Source: a virus
Lineage: Duplodnaviria > Heunggongvirae > Uroviricota > Caudoviricetes
Strand: one strand, 5' to 3'
DNA length: 5,037 nucleotides
IMG/VR virus record: IMGVR_UViG_2563366883_000001
Location: 1-5,037 of that record
Within the stretch, counting starts at the first letter, position 1. Each line of letters starts with the position of its first letter. Positions 1,655-4,642 of the stretch are shown here, in pieces. Both the position numbers and the translations under genes were made by a program. The notes under the pieces were generated by a model. It saw only the letters and a program-made list of their open reading frames with translations. It was not told where the DNA came from and did not search any database.

Positions 1655-1969
1655 ATGACGATCACAAAACAACGAGTAGAAAAAATCATATATCGCCATG
1701 AAATGGGACTGAACAGCGATGTCACTGCCGAAGAGGTTTATGACCTGGCTGTACTGGCGCTGAATTTATCAAATATCGCAAACCTGAAGCGATACGAGCT
1801 TGATATGGATGGTTGCGACTCGTGCGGTCAGGATTGTGGCGCAGATATGACTGAAGATCCTGATGGTGATTATGTCCTGTTTGATGACGTGGTTAAGTTG
1901 TTTGAATTTGATACAACCACTCAAAAGTTAGAAATCCCGGCAAAGGAGGCAGCCAGTGAGCAAGATTGA
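1655..1969 (+). CDS. Hypothetical acidic phage protein
   Basis: ORF-track frame 1631..1969. ATG 1655 chosen as start (purine-rich GAAGAG just upstream); the TTG 1631 and GTG 1643 alternatives are not excluded. C-terminal half is Asp/Glu-rich with a CDSCGQDCG cysteine cluster. Its 3' end overlaps the next gene's GTG start. Confidence 0.55.
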   Translation: MTITKQRVEKIIYRHEMGLNSDVTAEEVYDLAVLALNLSNIANLKRYELDMDGCDSCGQDCGADMTEDPDGDYVLFDDVVKLFEFDTTTQKLEIPAKEAASEQD

Positions 1970-2504
1970 CTATCAGGCACTGCGTGAAAAGGCAGAGAAA
2001 GCAACTAAAGGAAGCTACATCGTAGGGCATACATCTGTTAACCAGCACGGCAATTTAACAGGAGTTTTTGTTTGCCAAAAATGGAAAGGAGAACCCGGTG
2101 GCGTGATTGCGGAATGTCATATTAACTGCCTGATTGAAACAGATGCTCAGGCTTATGCAAACGCTGAATTCATAGCAGAGGCTAACCCGGCTACCGTGCT
2201 GGCACTGCTGGATGAACGGGAAAGAAACCTGCAATACATCAAAAGCCGCGATCAGGAGAACGAGGATATTGCGCTAACGGTAGGGAAGCTGCGCGTTGAG
2301 CTTGAAGCAGAAAAACAGCGGGCAAAAGTTCTATTTATGGAAAATGCTCGGCTTAAGTCAGGCATAGCCGGTCTGATACACCTCGGTATTCGATATGCAG
2401 ATGTTGAGGTCATGAAAATTGCTGGAGATGCCCAGCTTTCTACCCCATGCACTGACAGCATCATAAACAGCATTGCAACAGGCATTCGCATCAAAGGAGA
2501 GTGA
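1956..2504 (+). CDS. Ead/Ea22-like family protein
   Basis: GTG 1956 with AAGGAGG at 1943-1949 (6-nt spacer). Contains the segment NAEFIAEANPATVLALLDERE plus a coiled-coil-like stretch, which I recognise as typical of Ead/Ea22-like proteins of lambdoid phage early regions. Confidence 0.8.
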   Translation: MSKIDYQALREKAEKATKGSYIVGHTSVNQHGNLTGVFVCQKWKGEPGGVIAECHINCLIETDAQAYANAEFIAEANPATVLALLDERERNLQYIKSRDQENEDIALTVGKLRVELEAEKQRAKVLFMENARLKSGIAGLIHLGIRYADVEVMKIAGDAQLSTPCTDSIINSIATGIRIKGE

Positions 2505-2505
2505 T

Positions 2506-3021
2506 ATGGCGTTAACACACCACGAACTCTGTCAGATTGCGTACAAGTTCCTTAAGCGCAACGGGTTCAAGGTTTGCTTTCATGACCGCTTTGTTGCTGT
2601 AACCAGTACCGGAGAACAGCCAGATGCTATGGGATTCAGAAATTCAGCATCATGCCTGATAGAGGCGAAGTGTTCTCGTGCTGACTTGTTGGCAGATAGA
2701 AAAAAGCGTTTCCGTAAAAATCCCTCACTTGGCATGGGCGACTGGCGATTCTTTATTAGTGAGCCGGAAATTATTTCAGTTGAGGATTTACCTCCCGGCT
2801 GGGGATTACTTCACGTTGTTAACGGAAGAGTACGGAAAGTACATGGATGGCCCAGGGGTAATTGCTGTTGGGGTAATCCTGACGATAAGCCATTTACTGG
2901 GAATAAGCAGGTTGAATGCGATTACATGTTATCTGCATTAAGGCGCATGGAGTTGAGAGGGCACCTTAATGAAATATATGACGGTGTGATTGTTAATAAG
3001 AAAGAAGGAAACGCGGCATGA
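2506..3021 (+). CDS. PD-(D/E)xK-motif putative nuclease (possibly MmcB-like)
   Basis: ATG 2506 with AAGGAG at 2494-2499; the ATG at 2473 lacks an SD. Motif GEQPDAMGF ... CLIEAKCSRADLL fits E...PD...(D/E)xK of restriction-endonuclease-fold nucleases. Stop overlaps the next ATG (ATGA). Confidence 0.7.
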   Translation: MALTHHELCQIAYKFLKRNGFKVCFHDRFVAVTSTGEQPDAMGFRNSASCLIEAKCSRADLLADRKKRFRKNPSLGMGDWRFFISEPEIISVEDLPPGWGLLHVVNGRVRKVHGWPRGNCCWGNPDDKPFTGNKQVECDYMLSALRRMELRGHLNEIYDGVIVNKKEGNAA

Positions 3022-3926
3022 TCACTATTACCAAAGGGCGACTGCTGACAATCAAGCAGTGGCGCGAAACATACGGACCGGGTAGCAACGTTGTACTGCC
3101 AGCAGAAGAAGCGGAAGAACTGGCACGAATTGCACTGGTATCGCTGGAAGCAGAGCCGGTGGCAAAGATTATAGCTCATTACCCATTAGGAGTTGACGTA
3201 GGCAAACAAAAGTTCGTACAGGCCATTGGAGAGCTTCCTGACTTTGGCGGATATCTATTTGCCGCCCCGCCAGCGCCGGTAGTGCCGGAAGAAGCAACTC
3301 CGGAAAACGTAGAAATGCTCTCTGGCTATGTTTCCACGTACAAATTAACCGATAGCGAGCGCGATATTGCTGCCGAAATATGGAACGCCTGCCGCACCGA
3401 CATGCTTCAGTCCGGAAACTTTCGGGAAAGCAAGAATTCGTCAACCAATAATTTTCGGGAAATCCCGGAAGCGTCAACCAGCTCTCCGGTAACTCCGGCT
3501 CTTCTGCCTGGTGGTTTCACCATTGAGGAGGCGAAGGAATTACATGAAGACCTGGTACGCAGCCACATAAGCAAGGCCTTAAGTGGCGAAAAGATGAAAA
3601 AGAAAGATCGCGATGCTGATTTGCGCTGGATTCATGGCGTTATAGTTCAGGCAGCGTGGTTTGTAAAAGCATCACTGGAGCAGAATGCACTATCGGGCAA
3701 CTCTCCGGTAACTCCGGATGGTTGGATAAGCTGTAGTGAGCGAATGCCGGATGATGGTCAGCACGTAATTATTTTATGTGATGGCGCATTCGTTCTTTAT
3801 GCGCAATATCGAGACGGTGAGTTTTTTGATGTAGTCCGTAATGGTGATGAATTTTTCGAAACACAGAGCCGCAATGTAACCGACTGGATGCCGTTACCAG
3901 AACCGCCGCAGGAGGTGCGCCAATGA
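3018..3926 (+). CDS. DUF551 domain-containing mosaic phage protein
   Basis: C-terminus DGWISCSERMPDDGQHVIILCDGAFVLYAQYRDGEFFD...VTDWMPLPEPP matches the DUF551 signature (W-x-S...LP...THWMPLPEPP). SD AAGGAA at 3004-3009. Contains two in-frame 17-bp direct repeats, each encoding SPVTP. Confidence 0.8.
   Translation: MITITKGRLLTIKQWRETYGPGSNVVLPAEEAEELARIALVSLEAEPVAKIIAHYPLGVDVGKQKFVQAIGELPDFGGYLFAAPPAPVVPEEATPENVEMLSGYVSTYKLTDSERDIAAEIWNACRTDMLQSGNFRESKNSSTNNFREIPEASTSSPVTPALLPGGFTIEEAKELHEDLVRSHISKALSGEKMKKKDRDADLRWIHGVIVQAAWFVKASLEQNALSGNSPVTPDGWISCSERMPDDGQHVIILCDGAFVLYAQYRDGEFFDVVRNGDEFFETQSRNVTDWMPLPEPPQEVRQ
3482..3717 (+). repeat. Pair of 17-bp direct repeats (ctctccggtaactccgg) inside the DUF551 gene
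   Basis: Exact copies at 3482-3498 and 3701-3717, in the same reading frame, each encoding SPVTP. They flank a ~200-bp segment encoding a charged, helix-like module. Confidence 0.7.
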
Positions 3927-4006
3927 TCTGGCCTGAAGCATTTGCAATTACAGGCGTTGCTATGGCTATCGCTTTTTTAGTATATGTTATTTGTCGGTGT
4001 GGGTAA
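3923..4006 (+). CDS. Predicted 27-aa hydrophobic peptide (MIWPEAFAITGVAMAIAFLVYVICRCG)
   Basis: Not in the ORF track (too short). ATG 3923 overlaps the DUF551 stop (ATGA) and is preceded by GGAGG at 3911-3915 (7-nt spacer). Hand translation gives a single hydrophobic helix, stop TAA 4004-4006. Confidence 0.35.
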   Translation: MIWPEAFAITGVAMAIAFLVYVICRCG

Positions 4007-4041
4007 AAGCGTTCGCCGGGATTAACACCAAAGGAGGGAAT

Positions 4042-4146
4042 GTGTCGGATGATATCTCACTGGCAATGGAAGGTGCGCTGGCTGTTATTGCTGTTGTGGG
4101 TGTTTACTGCCTGGTTGTGTTTTTGATGGATCGACTAGGGAACTGA
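4042..4146 (+). CDS. Predicted 34-aa hydrophobic peptide (MSDDISLAMEGALAVIAVVGVYCLVVFLMDRLGN)
   Basis: Not in the ORF track. GTG 4042 follows AAGGAGGG at 4031-4038 (spacing short, 3-4 nt). Acidic N-terminus, one TM-like helix, charged C-terminus, stop TGA 4144-4146. A 28-aa peptide in another frame (ATG 4040..4126) uses the same SD; the start is ambiguous. Confidence 0.3.
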   Translation: MSDDISLAMEGALAVIAVVGVYCLVVFLMDRLGN

Positions 4147-4154
4147 ATTCATTA

Positions 4155-4176
4155 CGATATGGGAATTCCCATATCG
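4155..4176. repeat. 22-bp perfect palindrome cgatatgggaattcccatatcg centred on GAATTC
   Basis: Every position pairs across the centre at 4165/4166. Lies between the 34-aa small ORF and the predicted hok promoter. No U-tract on either side. Confidence 0.6.
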
Positions 4177-4187
4177 GGTAAAAACGG

Positions 4188-4216
4188 TTTGCGGTAAAGC
4201 GAGAGTTAAGTAGAAT
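4188..4216 (+). promoter_or_regulatory. Putative sigma-70 promoter of the hok/mok mRNA
   Basis: -35 TTGCGG (4189-4194), 16-nt spacer, -10 TAGAAT (4211-4216, 5/6 to consensus). The predicted start site near 4222-4224 coincides with the 5' segment that is complementary to the mRNA 3' end. Confidence 0.45.
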
Positions 4217-4234
4217 TGCTGCGGGTGCTTGAGG

Positions 4235-4270
4235 CTGTCTGCCTCGGGCATGCCACCGTAAGGCAGACAG
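4235..4270 (+). promoter_or_regulatory. hok mRNA leader stem-loop
   Basis: 10-bp perfect stem ctgtctgcct (4235-4244) / aggcagacag (4261-4270) with a 16-nt loop. Lies in the predicted 5' leader upstream of mok. Confidence 0.5.
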
Positions 4271-4277
4271 AGAAAAG

Positions 4278-4343
4278 CCCCAGTTAACATTATGCGTCTT
4301 GCAGGACGCTTAACATTAATCTGAGGCCAATTTCATGCTAGCC
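4278..4343 (-). ncRNA. sok: Predicted Sok-like antisense RNA (approximate bounds)
   Basis: Inferred from the antisense promoter and from the sokC/mokC arrangement I recall. Would be complementary to the mok start codon and SD (4321-4337). The minus strand has a small hairpin (plus coordinates 4294-4309) and a U-rich stretch from plus 4270-4278. Ends not determinable from sequence alone. Confidence 0.35.
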
Positions 4344-4547
4344 ACATGTAGGTTAGCCTCTTACACGCCGAAAGGCAAGGAGAAGCAGGCTATGAAGCAG
4401 CAAAAGGCGATGTTAGTCGCCCTGATCGTCATCTGTATTACCGTCATTGTGACGGCACTGGTAACGAGGAAAGACCTCTGCGAGGTACGAATCCGAACCG
4501 GCCAGACGGAGGTCACTGTCTTCACAGCTTACGAACCTGAGGAGTAA
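4335..4547 (+). CDS. mok: Mok-like regulatory reading frame (in-frame upstream extension of hok)
   Basis: 70-aa ORF from the track, MLATCRLASYTPKGKEKQA followed by the Hok sequence. As I recall, chromosomal Mok proteins such as MokC have this in-frame extended layout. GAGG at 4323-4326 lies 8 nt upstream of ATG 4335. Confidence 0.5.
   Translation: MLATCRLASYTPKGKEKQAMKQQKAMLVALIVICITVIVTALVTRKDLCEVRIRTGQTEVTVFTAYEPEE
4350..4378 (-). promoter_or_regulatory. Putative Sok antisense promoter
   Basis: On the minus strand: -35 TTGCCT (plus coordinates 4378-4373), 17-nt spacer, -10 TAACCT (4355-4350). Placed inside the 5' part of mok, where sok promoters sit in known hok loci. Confidence 0.35.
4392..4547 (+). 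CDS. hok: Hok/Gef family type I toxin, closest to HokD (RelF)
   Basis: 51 aa, MKQQKAMLVALIVICITVIVTALVTRKDLCEVRIRTGQTEVTVFTAYEPEE. From memory this is near-identical to E. coli HokD/RelF and very similar to HokC/Gef. AAGGAG at 4376-4381 lies 10 nt upstream of ATG 4392. Confidence 0.9.
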   Translation: MKQQKAMLVALIVICITVIVTALVTRKDLCEVRIRTGQTEVTVFTAYEPEE

Positions 4548-4615: not shown

Positions 4616-4642
4616 AACCCGCTTCGGCGGGTTTTGTTTTTT
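4616..4642 (+). terminator. Rho-independent terminator of the hok mRNA
   Basis: Stem aacccgc (4616-4622) / gcgggtt (4627-4633) with UUCG tetraloop (4623-4626), followed by the T-rich run ttttgtttttt through 4642. Confidence 0.8.

What the first reader, a model, noticed from the sequence alone, without database searches (positions are those of the whole stretch)
4155..4176. 22-bp perfect palindrome centred on an EcoRI site between the phage operon and the hok promoter
cgatatgggaattcccatatcg is fully self-complementary. It ends 12 bp upstream of the predicted hok -35 and 9 bp after the last small ORF. It has no flanking U-tract, so it is not a canonical intrinsic terminator. A perfect dyad of this length is a typical dimeric-protein operator, or it may be an RNA processing or stability hairpin ending the upstream operon transcript. 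A second GAATTC lies at 4145-4150.
Basis: seen in the sequence. Interest (0 to 1): 0.4.

Follow-up and report, generated by a model that had tools for sequence, protein, structure and literature searches.

The report
Orphan KilA-N gene hairpin beside hok
The 22-base palindrome is real, but it is not a hok-specific switch: it is a detached copy of a palindrome normally found inside phage KilA-N/BstA defence genes, where selection keeps its two arms complementary across many bacterial phyla.

Summary
Observation confirmed. CGATATGGGAATTCCCATATCG (4155-4176) is a perfect palindrome, and 0 of 300 shuffles of the window reach that arm length.

It is not a local oddity. The same 22-mer lies inside KilA-N-domain genes of Proteobacteria, Cyanobacteria, Chloroflexi, Spirochaetes and Bacillota, where it encodes D-M-G-I-P-I-S. 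In Bacteroidota it sits at the same place in another reading frame (R-Y-G-N-S-H-I). The E. coli version is a BstA-family abortive-infection gene.

In homologues collected without reference to the motif, the arms change together:
- 91.5% of cells are paired against 77.9% in shuffles (0/500).
- 41 double-sided changes are seen against 8 expected.
- Synonymous codons are fixed (CCC, ATA and TCG in 23/23).
- G·U pairs are rare.

Selection therefore acts on nucleic-acid pairing, probably in DNA.

In the window only the palindrome and about 13-17 flanking bases of such a gene survive. They lie antisense, in the same nin-region position as the intact gene in related phages. They form the right end of a 175-nt block that palindrome-free hok loci lack.

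About half of hok loci have no palindrome. In PPompW it lies downstream of a terminator. A hok operator or an operon-end RNA hairpin is therefore unlikely.

Most likely it is a gene remnant. It could still act as an orphan anti-BstA decoy site.

The parts
4155..4176 (.). Perfect 22-bp palindrome CGATATGGGAATTCCCATATCG. It is identical to the internal palindrome of KilA-N/BstA-family genes, where it encodes D-M-G-I-P-I-S.
   Evidence: real and non-random. (the same 22-mer inside KilA-N/BstA-family genes). (9-bp stem plus 4-nt loop; ssDNA -8.6 kcal/mol, z -3.7).
4139..4154 (-). Decayed remnant of the gene sequence that follows the palindrome in bstA-like genes. On the minus strand it reads TAATGAATTCAGTTC, against GAGTTAATTCAATCA in the intact gene. 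It overlaps the stop codon of the upstream small ORF.
   Evidence: Alignment A3 shows a graded series: 673R7 gene > L272 > PPompW > window. Anchored identity reaches 9-10 of 15 against enterobacterial genes, versus about 3.5-5 in control comparisons. This left flank is shared by two otherwise unrelated left contexts.
4022..4196 (+). 175-nt block that palindrome-free hok loci lack: spacer, small TM ORF2, gene remnant, palindrome and the second copy of the direct repeat. Because of the repeat, the indel can equally be placed at 4002-4176.
   Evidence: alignment A4 with locus L236.
4002..4021 (+). Direct repeat copy 1 (GGTAAAAGCGTTCGCCGGGA). It is a degenerate copy of the sequence just upstream of, and including, the hok -35.
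   Evidence: It aligns with L236 GATAAAAACGGTTTGCGGGA and with window 4177-4196.
4177..4196 (+). Direct repeat copy 2 (GGTAAAAACGGTTTGCGGTA). This is the left edge of the conserved hok module and contains the putative -35 TTGCGG (4189-4194).
   Evidence: Homology with palindrome-free hok loci begins here.
4042..4146 (+). Small hydrophobic ORF2 (34 aa, RefSeq WP_001278450.1), inside the 175-nt block.
3923..4006 (+). Small hydrophobic ORF1 (27 aa). It is homologous to the small ORF that directly abuts the hok promoter in palindrome-free loci.
4223..4397 (+). Neighbour, not part of the element: 5' part of the hok mRNA and the sok region. mok is 4335-4547, hokD is 4392-4547 and the terminator is 4616-4633.

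Best explanation
The palindrome is the detached core of a DNA palindrome that normally lies inside KilA-N-domain genes. In E. coli prophages these are BstA-family abortive-infection genes.

Shown: in those genes the 22 bases encode a loop of the protein, D-M-G-I-P-I-S. The two arms are kept complementary by selection on the nucleic acid. Arms change together, synonymous codons are fixed to the pairing partner, and the same hairpin is kept in another reading frame in Bacteroidota.

Shown: in the window only the palindrome and about 13-17 decayed bases of the gene's downstream side survive. They lie on the minus strand, in the nin region between the replication genes and Q. Related phages carry the intact gene in that place and orientation. 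The remnant is the right end of a 175-nt block, bounded by a ~20-nt direct repeat, that palindrome-free hok loci lack. The conserved hok module begins at the next base.

Inferred: a bstA-like gene was broken or recombined at its palindrome, and the rest was lost.

Inferred: the element does not control hok and does not terminate the upstream operon. It most likely persists as a scar that travels with the hok module.

Inferred for the parent genes: the palindrome most likely works in DNA, as a hairpin, cruciform or dyad site read by the KilA-N protein of the same gene. This would be self-recognition or autoregulation, in the manner of the aba self-immunity DNA of BstA.

Sub-probabilities:
- origin from a KilA-N/BstA-type gene: about 0.8
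- no hok-specific role: about 0.85
- currently inert: about 0.45-0.5

The overall confidence given (0.5) is for the whole statement, including 'persists mainly as a scar'.
For: Identity and distribution:
- The exact 22-mer occurs in at least 119 IMG/VR contigs and at 63 places in species-representative genomes of many phyla.
- 40 of those 63 places, and 56 loci overall, lie inside ORFs that match a KilA-N HMM.
- Pfam KilA-N scores are E 4e-27, 2e-19 and 2e-19.
- The E. coli 257-aa protein matches PHROG 6287 'BstA abortive infection system' over its full length (E 2.7e-89) and PADLOC BstA (E 3e-21).

Structural selection:
- Homologues were fetched with patterns that did not include the motif. 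They carry perfect palindromes with both arms changed: CGATGCGGGAATTCCCGCATCG, TGATACGGGAATTCCCGTATCA, CGATATCGGAATTCCGATATCG, CGAAACGGGAATTCCCGTTTCG and GTCTATGGGAATTCCCATAGAC.
- On 43 distinct sequences, 91.5% of cells are paired against 77.9% in shuffles (0/500), there are 41 double-sided changes against 8.0 (0/500), and slid controls give 30-52%.
- In 23 distinct DMGIPIS neighbourhoods Pro is CCC 23/23 (10% elsewhere in the same genes), Ile is ATA 23/23 (14%), Ser is TCG 23/23 (12%) and Asp is GAT 23/23.
- Bacteroidota genes hold the same 22-mer in another frame.
- Peptide variants RYSDLNI, RYSDVNI, RYGDSHN and RYSHLNI were predicted to be palindromes and confirmed in DNA, including the 28-bp GAGCGATATTCAGATCTGAATATCGCTC.
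- Distant phage genes keep the stem but change the loop.
- There are only 5 G·U cells against 33 mismatches.
- The encoded residues fall in the least confident loop of the domain model, which is also variable in length.

Remnant in the window:
- Flank homology forms a graded series.
- The intact gene lies antisense in the nin region of phage vB_EcoS-673R7.
- The window is the nin region of a lambdoid prophage, and no KilA-N gene is found within 45 kb.
- The 175-nt block and its direct repeats are shown.

Not hok-specific:
Against: - Beyond about 13-17 nt there is no detectable KilA-N remnant. tblastn aligns only 13 residues, 7 of them from the palindrome itself, and the HMM finds nothing. The origin therefore rests on a short flank, position and orientation.
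- Two diverged hok-linked classes differ at 6 of 25 positions just right of the palindrome but at 0 of 22 inside it. This hints at continued constraint rather than an inert scar, although that sample was partly selected for the exact 22-mer.
- The orphan is more widespread in complete E. coli genomes (674) than the intact gene (137).
- Exact copies also occur in unrelated ORFs. One is a clean 54-nt presence/absence difference, which fits a mobile or insertable unit as well as decay in place.
- No experiment links the palindrome to any KilA-N or BstA activity.
Confidence: 0.5

Rival explanations
1. Orphan self-immunity or decoy site. The remnant is kept because it still does what the palindrome does inside bstA-like genes. 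As a DNA hairpin or dyad on replicating phage DNA, it is recognised by a BstA-type KilA-N protein made by a co-resident prophage. It switches off or titrates that protein, so this prophage escapes abortive infection without carrying the gene.
For: - BstA proteins are KilA-N proteins. [quoted passage not shown] The aba of BstA-Ec and BstA-Kp were not mapped (PMC8585504).
- The palindrome lies inside BstA-family genes.
- Its stems differ between homologues while pairing is kept. That is what an allele-specific cis site would look like.
- G·U pairs are not tolerated, which favours DNA over RNA.
- The orphan is perfectly conserved in two diverged hok-linked classes, and the same allele circulates in E. 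coli bstA-like genes.
- Extra palindromes of the same type lie upstream of a KilA-N gene in Calothrix.
Against: - The only mapped aba (BTP1) is a 63-bp element at the start of the gene, with CCCGCC direct repeats and no palindrome. The first 34 bp plus upstream sequence suffice there.
- BTP1 BstA resembles the E. coli protein only in the C-terminal domain.
- The hairpin also occurs in KilA-N genes with other C-terminal domains: ANT/KilAC, RHH and the Bacteroidota type. Its role therefore cannot depend on the BstA C-domain.
- About a quarter of hok-linked copies carry a defect.
- There is no experimental link.
Confidence: 0.22
2. RNA hairpin in the rightward early transcript. The 9-bp stem with an AAUU loop protects the 3' end of processed upstream messages. 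Alternatively it marks a processing site that separates read-through transcripts from the hok mRNA, whose function needs a defined 5' end.
For: - The hairpin is the dominant local structure in the RNA fold of 4125-4215 (MFE -23.2 kcal/mol, z -2.7).
- It lies between the last small ORF and the hok promoter on the transcribed strand.
- A G·T change in L306 keeps pairing on the plus strand.
Against: - In PPompW the palindrome sits downstream of a terminator-like hairpin.
- Many hok loci do without it.
- In the parent genes wobble pairs are not enriched (5 G·U against 33 mismatches), and perfect palindromes reach 28 bp, which is unlike typical RNA elements.
- There is no Rfam match.
Confidence: 0.1
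3. Autonomous very small mobile palindromic unit. The palindrome, with a few adjoining bases, inserts into new sites, including open reading frames. The copy next to hok is such an insertion rather than a decayed gene.
For: - Exact copies lie in unrelated contexts in many phyla.
- A 54-nt in-frame stretch carrying the 22-mer is present in one Magnetococcales gene and absent from its 75%-identical homologue.
- Direct repeats flank copies in L010 and L144 and in the window's 175-nt block.
- Tandem arrays of related palindromes occur in L133 and L053.
- The 22-mer has no stop codon in any of the six frames (read directly from the sequence).
Against: - In KilA-N genes the palindrome sits at one homologous position and diverges along with the gene. 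That indicates inheritance, not repeated insertion.
- A conserved peptide plus a perfect-pairing constraint leaves only about 12 possible DNA sequences (my own derivation). Identity across phyla therefore needs no mobility.
- No transposase, terminal repeats or regular target duplication were found.
- All E. coli orphan copies examined are hok-linked.
Confidence: 0.1
4. Operator of the hok promoter. A dimeric DNA-binding protein binds the dyad 12 bp upstream of the -35 and modulates hok transcription.
For: - The dyad is perfect and lies close to the promoter.
- It is co-inherited with hok in at least 674 E. coli genomes.
Against: - About half of hok loci sampled by promoter sequence lack it, and 933W hokW lacks it too.
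- One variant places 16 extra bases between the palindrome and the promoter (L272).
- It does not overlap the core promoter.
- The same sequence exists mainly inside genes unrelated to hok.
- hok control is known to be post-transcriptional, through Sok RNA (established knowledge of hok/sok).
Confidence: 0.05

Closest known systems
aba (anti-BstA) self-immunity element of BstA abortive-infection loci (Owen et al. 2021, PMC8585504)
   Same: Both are short stretches of DNA embedded in the locus of a KilA-N-type BstA protein. aba acts as DNA rather than RNA or peptide, and it differs between homologues (cognate pairs). The palindrome also lies inside BstA-family genes, varies in stem sequence between homologues and shows DNA-like pairing statistics.
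   Different: The mapped aba (BTP1) spans 29 bp upstream plus the first 34 bp of the gene and depends on CCCGCC direct repeats. It is not a palindrome and not in the KilA-N-coding part. The palindrome also occurs in KilA-N genes without the BstA C-domain. No functional test exists. The window copy is outside any bstA gene.
Protein-binding sites placed inside the gene of the protein that binds them (lambda ori iterons inside gene O; the HK022 Roi site inside roi)
   Same: A DNA site with dyad symmetry lies within the coding sequence of a phage DNA-binding protein, in a linker or loop region of the protein. The nucleotide sequence is therefore constrained beyond coding needs.
   Different: Binding of a KilA-N protein to this palindrome has not been shown. 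The lambda and Roi examples are recalled from memory; the Roi paper (PMC178163) could not be read here. Those sites are sequence-conserved, whereas here pairing is conserved and the sequence drifts.
Intergenic palindromes of enterobacteria (REP/BIME) and other mRNA-stabilising hairpins
   Same: A stable hairpin without a U-tract lies between transcription units.
   Different: There is no REP consensus and no multi-copy dispersal through the chromosome. The origin is inside a protein-coding gene. In one context the palindrome lies downstream of a terminator.
Small palindromic insertions that enter coding regions in frame (Rickettsia palindromic elements; small dispersed repeats of cyanobacteria)
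   Same: Copies of a palindromic sequence are found in frame inside unrelated ORFs, and there is one clean presence/absence case.
   Different: This element is much shorter (22-54 nt). Its main home is one homologous position of one gene family, where it is inherited vertically. The comparison with those elements is from memory and was not tested.

Membership tests
Remnant of a KilA-N/BstA-family gene | Sequence identity with the gene-internal palindrome | tested here: met
   The 22-mer is identical to that of the E. coli 257-aa KilA-N/BstA-family gene (L035, L406) and to many others.
Remnant of a KilA-N/BstA-family gene | Homology continuing into the flank in the gene's orientation | tested here: met
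   The homology is short and decayed. On the minus strand 9-10 of the first 15 nt match enterobacterial genes, with controls at about 3.5-5. Alignment A3 shows a graded series.
Remnant of a KilA-N/BstA-family gene | Same genomic position and strand as the intact gene in related phages | tested here: met
   The intact gene lies antisense between the replication genes and Q in vB_EcoS-673R7. The window lies between P and Q, and the remnant is on the minus strand.
Remnant of a KilA-N/BstA-family gene | Detectable KilA-N protein similarity (pseudogene) | tested here: not met
   tblastn aligns only about 13 residues. The KilA-N HMM finds nothing in the window or in the 45-kb region.
aba (anti-BstA) element | Lies within a bstA locus | tested here: not met
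   The window copy is orphan, with no KilA-N or BstA gene within 45 kb. The parent palindrome does lie inside BstA-family genes.
aba (anti-BstA) element | Sequence or architecture of the mapped aba (63 bp at the gene start, terminal CCCGCC direct repeats) | tested here: not met
   The aba sequence quoted in PMC8585504 has no similarity to the palindrome and contains no palindrome.
aba (anti-BstA) element | Suppresses the cognate BstA protein as DNA | not testable with these tools
   Only indirect evidence is available: perfect Watson-Crick pairing and no excess of G·U.
Dyad-symmetric operator of the hok promoter | Dyad symmetry | tested here: met
Dyad-symmetric operator of the hok promoter | Conserved together with the promoter it controls | tested here: not met
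   Among hok loci picked by promoter sequence, about half lack it and their homology starts at 4177-4180. 933W hokW lacks it.
Dyad-symmetric operator of the hok promoter | Overlaps or abuts the -35/-10 at a fixed distance | tested here: not met
   It ends 12 nt upstream of the -35. One variant has 16 extra nt between them.
Intrinsic terminator | G+C-rich stem followed by a T/U run | tested here: not met
   There is no T-run on either strand and the scan does not call it.
Known RNA family (Rfam 15) | Match to a covariance model | tested here: not met
   Only sok (4223-4397) reaches threshold. Nothing covers 4155-4176 even at E <= 10.
Small mobile palindromic element (MITE-, RPE- or SDR-like) | Clean presence/absence polymorphism | tested here: inconclusive
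   There is one 54-nt in-frame case and the window's 175-nt block with a ~20-nt direct repeat. No systematic survey was done.
Small mobile palindromic element (MITE-, RPE- or SDR-like) | Many dispersed copies per genome with target duplications or terminal repeats | tested here: not met
   E. coli copies are hok-linked or gene-borne. Flanking direct repeats are irregular in length.

The most novel reading that the evidence does not exclude
KilA-N/BstA-family genes carry, inside the coding sequence of their DNA-binding domain, a palindromic DNA element. Its pairing, rather than its sequence, is under selection. It would be the cis 'self' mark read by the encoded protein, which would make it the unmapped cognate aba of canonical KilA-N BstA proteins. 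Because mark and reader share the same 22 bases, recombination cannot separate them. Detached copies such as the one next to hok would then be orphan self-marks, meaning DNA decoys that let a prophage without the defence gene escape BstA-type abortive infection.
Probability: 0.2. Interest if true: 0.85.

Novelty: new variant of a known kind. Interest (0 to 1): 0.68.

Why it matters
The window's palindrome by itself is a modest feature. Following it uncovered something I could not find described: searches for 'KilA-N' with 'palindrome', for the sequence itself, and for BstA follow-up work returned nothing.

One position in KilA-N-domain genes holds a perfect palindrome. It is found from E. coli prophages to Nostoc, Dehalococcoidia, Spirochaetes and Bacteroidota. 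Both arms co-evolve, to the point of dictating amino-acid pairs (M/I with I, A with A, T with V, D/E with S). The palindrome is even kept in a second reading frame.

This gives a concrete, testable candidate for two open questions about BstA defence: where the cognate self-immunity DNA of non-BTP1 BstA proteins lies, and what the KilA-N domain recognises. It also suggests that short orphan copies in phage genomes could be anti-defence decoys.

If the orphan is only a scar, it still marks a recombination joint that helps explain mosaicism in the nin region.

Tried and rejected
- Rfam at gathering threshold and at E <= 10 over 4080-4240 returned only sok.
- A simple promoter/terminator scan showed that the palindrome is not terminator-like. 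The scan does not call the hok promoter either.
- tblastn of the BstA-like protein against all hok-linked loci looked for a longer pseudogene. It found only 13-18 residues, and the 47-residue alignments at E about 0.06 were judged not significant.
- The plus-strand reading DMGIPIS-GKNGL matches a Calothrix KilA-N gene (10 of 15 nt). I treated this as coincidence, because everything beyond it is conserved hok promoter.
- An ARAGORN run tested a tRNA-like context of the 22-mer in two Alcaligenaceae contigs and found no tRNA.
- A search of viral contigs for the Bacteroidota protein found no relatives. A protein search plus contig look-ups replaced it.
- Checking whether the mapped aba of BTP1 is the palindrome showed that it is not.
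- The BstA paper's supplements hold no protein sequences, so BstA-Ec and BstA-Kp could not be checked for the palindrome.
- The HK022 Roi paper (PMC178163) is not held.
- Neighbour genes of the palindrome array in L133 were listed but not informative.
- The idea that the encoded peptide is an HTH recognition helix was dropped. The model places it at a helix end and in a low-confidence loop before the wing strand. The Mbp1 alignment starts only after it.
- Cross-phylum identity of the 22-mer as proof of horizontal transfer was rejected. A conserved peptide plus perfect pairing leaves only about 12 possible sequences (my derivation).
Full report
1. The observation. Window 4155-4176 is cgatatgggaattcccatatcg, a perfect 22-bp palindrome centred on GAATTC. 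A second GAATTC lies at 4145-4150. The palindrome starts 8 nt after the stop (4146) of an annotated 34-aa ORF. It ends 12 nt before a plausible hok -35 (TTGCGG, 4189-4194; -10 TAGAAT, 4211-4216). The Rfam sok/hok model begins at 4223 (117 bits). No T-run follows on either strand. About 0.001 such palindromes are expected in 5 kb (my arithmetic). None of 300 shuffles of the window reaches an 11-nt arm.

2. Where the window comes from. The window is 100% identical to E. coli JE86-ST05 (NZ_AP022815, 1198201-1203237), inside a lambdoid prophage. The local gene order is replication protein P, DUF1627, several small or decayed genes, two tiny hydrophobic ORFs, the palindrome, hokD, DUF968, RusA and Q. 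This is the nin-region equivalent, transcribed rightward.

3. The 22-mer is not local. It also occurs at 63 places in species-representative genomes. These include Nostoc and other cyanobacteria, Saprospiraceae and other Bacteroidota, Azospirillum, Rhizobiales, Nitrosospira, Dehalococcoidia, Spirochaetia, Bacillota, Xenorhabdus, Rouxiella and Siccibacter. In most of them it lies inside an ORF and reads C|GAT ATG GGA ATT CCC ATA TCG, which is D-M-G-I-P-I-S, within ...GYINAT...RLKSTxEFLxELSx-DMGIPIS-ELIQSxKGG...QGTWVHP.... These ORFs are KilA-N-domain proteins (Pfam PF04383; E 4e-27, 2e-19, 2e-19). An HMM built from them places 56 of the fetched loci, including 40 of the 63 genome loci, inside such genes. 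The E. coli version (257 aa) matches PHROG 6287, 'BstA abortive infection system, replication inhibitor', over its full length (E 2.7e-89). It also matches the PADLOC BstA model in its C-terminal half (E 3e-21).

4. The palindrome is selected as a paired structure. I fetched homologues of the E. coli protein from metagenomes and viral contigs, using peptide patterns that did not include the motif.
- At the homologous place nearly all carry a perfect or near-perfect palindrome, often with both arms changed. Examples are CGATGCGGGAATTCCCGCATCG (DAGIPAS), TGATACGGGAATTCCCGTATCA (DTGIPVS), CGATATCGGAATTCCGATATCG (DIGIPIS), CGATGCCGGAATTCCGGCATCG, CGAAACGGGAATTCCCGTTTCG (ETGIPVS) and GTCTATGGGAATTCCCATAGAC (SMGIPID).
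- The pairing rule predicts the observed amino-acid couplings: M/I with I, A with A, T with V, D/E with S, and V with T.
- On 43 distinct sequences, 91.5% of cells pair against 77.9% in shuffles (0/500). There are 41 double-sided changes against 8.0 (0/500). The covariation score is 0.357 against 0.117, and slid controls pair at only 30-52%.
- Among 23 distinct DMGIPIS neighbourhoods the synonymous choices are fixed to the pairing partner. Pro is CCC 23/23 (10% elsewhere in the same genes), the second Ile is ATA 23/23 (14%), Ser is TCG 23/23 (12%), Asp is GAT 23/23, and the preceding base is C in 22/23.
- More distant phage genes keep the stem but change the apex. PaV-LD has CGATATCG-GGAAGA-CGATATCG and LoVEphage has CGATATG-CATATTCC-CATATCG.

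5. A second reading frame. In Bacteroidota KilA-N genes the same 22-mer sits at the same place but is read as R-Y-G-N-S-H-I. A protein search of that subfamily showed the variants RYSDLNI, RYSDVNI, RYGDSHN, RYSHLNI and RYANSRI. I predicted from the pairing rule that these are palindromes with other cores. The DNA confirmed it:
- GAGCGATATTCAGATCTGAATATCGCTC, 28 bp and perfect
- cgatattca-GATG-tgaatatcg
- ccgttatggg-GATT-cccataacgg
- cgatattca-CATT-tgaatatcg
- CGATACGCGAATTCGCGCATCG, with 10 of 11 pairs
Coding constraint alone cannot explain this. An AlphaFold model of one such domain (pLDDT 77.8) puts the encoded residues at the end of a helix and in the following loop. That loop is the least confident part of the domain and varies in length, so the protein appears to tolerate what the nucleic acid dictates.

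6. DNA or RNA? Wobble pairs are not favoured, with 5 G·U cells against 33 mismatches. Perfect palindromes reach 24-38 bp, and no Rfam family matches. This leans towards a DNA-level feature, either a hairpin or cruciform or a dyad site. Homogenisation of the arms by template switching is another possibility. The question is not settled.

7. What is left in the window. On the minus strand the window reads ...KPFLP-DMGIPIS-**IQF....
- The 15 nt after the palindrome (TAATGAATTCAGTTC) match the gene's downstream flank (GAGTTAATTCAATCA) at 9-10 positions. Control comparisons average 3.5-5.
- Other hok-linked variants are intermediate: L272 has AGGTTAACTCAATCGGTTAAA and PPompW has GAATGAATTCAGTTCACC.
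- No longer pseudogene is detectable.
- In phage vB_EcoS-673R7 the intact gene lies between the replication genes and Q, on the strand opposite to them. That is the position and orientation of the remnant.
- Loci chosen by the hok promoter sequence fall into two architectures. One has ...GAACTGAATTCATT[A/C]-palindrome-G[G/A][T/C][A/G]AAAACGG.... In the other a small hydrophobic ORF abuts GATAAAAACGGTTTGCGG directly.
- The window carries a homologue of that small ORF at 3923-4006. It is followed by a degenerate copy of the promoter-upstream sequence (4002-4021). The intact copy (4177-4196) follows the palindrome. A 175-nt block, made of ORF2, the gene remnant and the palindrome, is therefore bounded by a ~20-nt direct repeat and ends exactly at the palindrome.

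8. Why the palindrome does not belong to hok or to the upstream operon.
- Homology of thousands of E. coli hok loci with the window starts at 4176-4204.
- 933W hokW starts at 4179.
- About half of the sampled hok loci have no palindrome.
- One variant has 16 extra bases between the palindrome and the promoter.
- In PPompW prophages the palindrome and its left flank lie about 85 nt downstream of a terminator-like hairpin after paa/adfO.

9. Is the orphan still under constraint? The evidence is mixed.
- Two diverged hok-linked classes differ at 6 of 25 positions to the right of the palindrome and at 0 of 22 inside it. Part of that sample was selected for the exact 22-mer.
- Defective variants exist: a one-base deletion in one arm in 11 loci, single substitutions, and a deletion that leaves 16 bp.
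- The orphan region is present in 674 of 5,426 complete E. coli genomes. The intact bstA-like gene is present in 137.

10. Other stand-alone copies. 23 of the 63 genome loci are outside KilA-N genes.
- Some lie in frame inside other phage-type ORFs: an AAA ATPase (L121), a Rha-like protein (L182), a giant protein (L149) and a Magnetococcales protein (L144).
- The 75%-identical homologue of the L144 protein lacks exactly 18 codons that include the 22-mer.
- Related palindromes occur in tandem or near each other in L133, L053, L002 and Calothrix L123. In L123 two lie in the intergenic region upstream of the KilA-N gene.
- These facts leave room for an insertable unit or for repeated binding sites.

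11. Link to known biology. Owen et al. (PMC8585504) showed three things. BstA proteins are KilA-N-type abortive-infection proteins of prophages. Self-immunity is given by aba, a DNA element within the bstA locus. Each homologue has its own cognate aba. Only the BTP1 element was mapped, and it is a 63-bp stretch at the gene start with CCCGCC direct repeats, not a palindrome. BTP1 BstA resembles the E. coli protein only in its C-domain. The palindrome is therefore not the known aba. It is a plausible candidate for the unmapped cognate elements of canonical KilA-N BstA proteins, or for another cis site read by the KilA-N domain. I found no paper that describes it.

12. Verdict. The palindrome is real and non-random. 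It is best explained as the surviving core of a bstA-like KilA-N gene at a mosaic joint next to the hok module (origin about 0.8). It is very unlikely to be a hok operator and unlikely to be an operon-end RNA hairpin. Whether it is now inert (about 0.45-0.5) or still acts as an orphan recognition or decoy site (about 0.2-0.25) cannot be decided without experiments. The wider result, a structure-selected palindrome inside KilA-N genes across phyla and in two reading frames, is what deserves follow-up.

Noticed in passing
L235 42312-42333 (NZ_AP022815 about 1220512-1220533; outside the window): The same prophage holds a second perfect 22-bp palindrome, TCAGGCCACCATGGTGGCCTGA, centred on CCATGG. 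It lies between the head decoration and major capsid genes.
   Followed up: no
L235 17183-17219 (outside the window): A 16-bp perfect stem with a 5-nt loop (TACCCATAGGTATTTA-AAAAG-TAAATACCTATGGGTA) lies in the immunity region, between a DUF1391 gene and a hypothetical gene.
   Followed up: no
window 3923-4006 and 4042-4146: Two tiny hydrophobic ORFs (27 and 34 aa) precede the palindrome. The first is homologous to the small ORF that directly abuts the hok promoter in palindrome-free loci. The second is inside the 175-nt block.
   Followed up: partly
L133 2526-2696 (Alcaligenaceae MAG): Five palindromes with a GGAATTCC-type core and different stems are spaced 35-55 bp apart in a G+C-rich stretch between two large ORFs. 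They include GTGAAACGGGAATTCCCGTTTCAC and the exact 22-mer. No KilA-N gene lies within 8 kb.
   Followed up: partly
L143 1-70 and L173 1-70 (Alcaligenaceae MAG contig ends): The 22-mer lies 22 nt from the start of two contigs and is followed by a tRNA-like T-arm (GGTTCGAGTCCCGC). ARAGORN calls no tRNA, possibly because a gene is truncated at an assembly break.
   Followed up: partly
L123 2005-4160 (Calothrix MAG): The KilA-N protein ends with the same ~43-residue ribbon-helix-helix-like tail as a small protein encoded just downstream of a ParA gene. Two further GGGAATTCCC-core palindromes lie in the intergenic region between them.
   Followed up: partly
L010 (IMG/VR contig), around the 22-mer: The 22-mer plus 16 nt is flanked by a 16-nt direct repeat, GCAACCAATGCGCGCA. 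This looks like an insertion with a target duplication.
   Followed up: no
L138 and L150 (Xenorhabdus beddingii, two contigs): One genome holds two copies of the 22-mer in about 90%-identical non-KilA-N flanks. This suggests a larger repeated unit that carries the palindrome.
   Followed up: no
window 1956-3926: RefSeq marks the ead/Ea22-like and DUF551 genes of this stretch as partial or frameshifted. My ORF list shows a continuous 302-aa ORF at 3018-3926, which RefSeq splits into two partial DUF551 genes.
   Followed up: no
L390 (Bacteroides phage LoVEphage KilA-N gene): The homologous site reads CGATATGCATATTCCCATATCG. The outer 7-bp stem is kept, but the inner part can form an alternative 10-bp palindrome, ATATGCATAT.
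   Followed up: no
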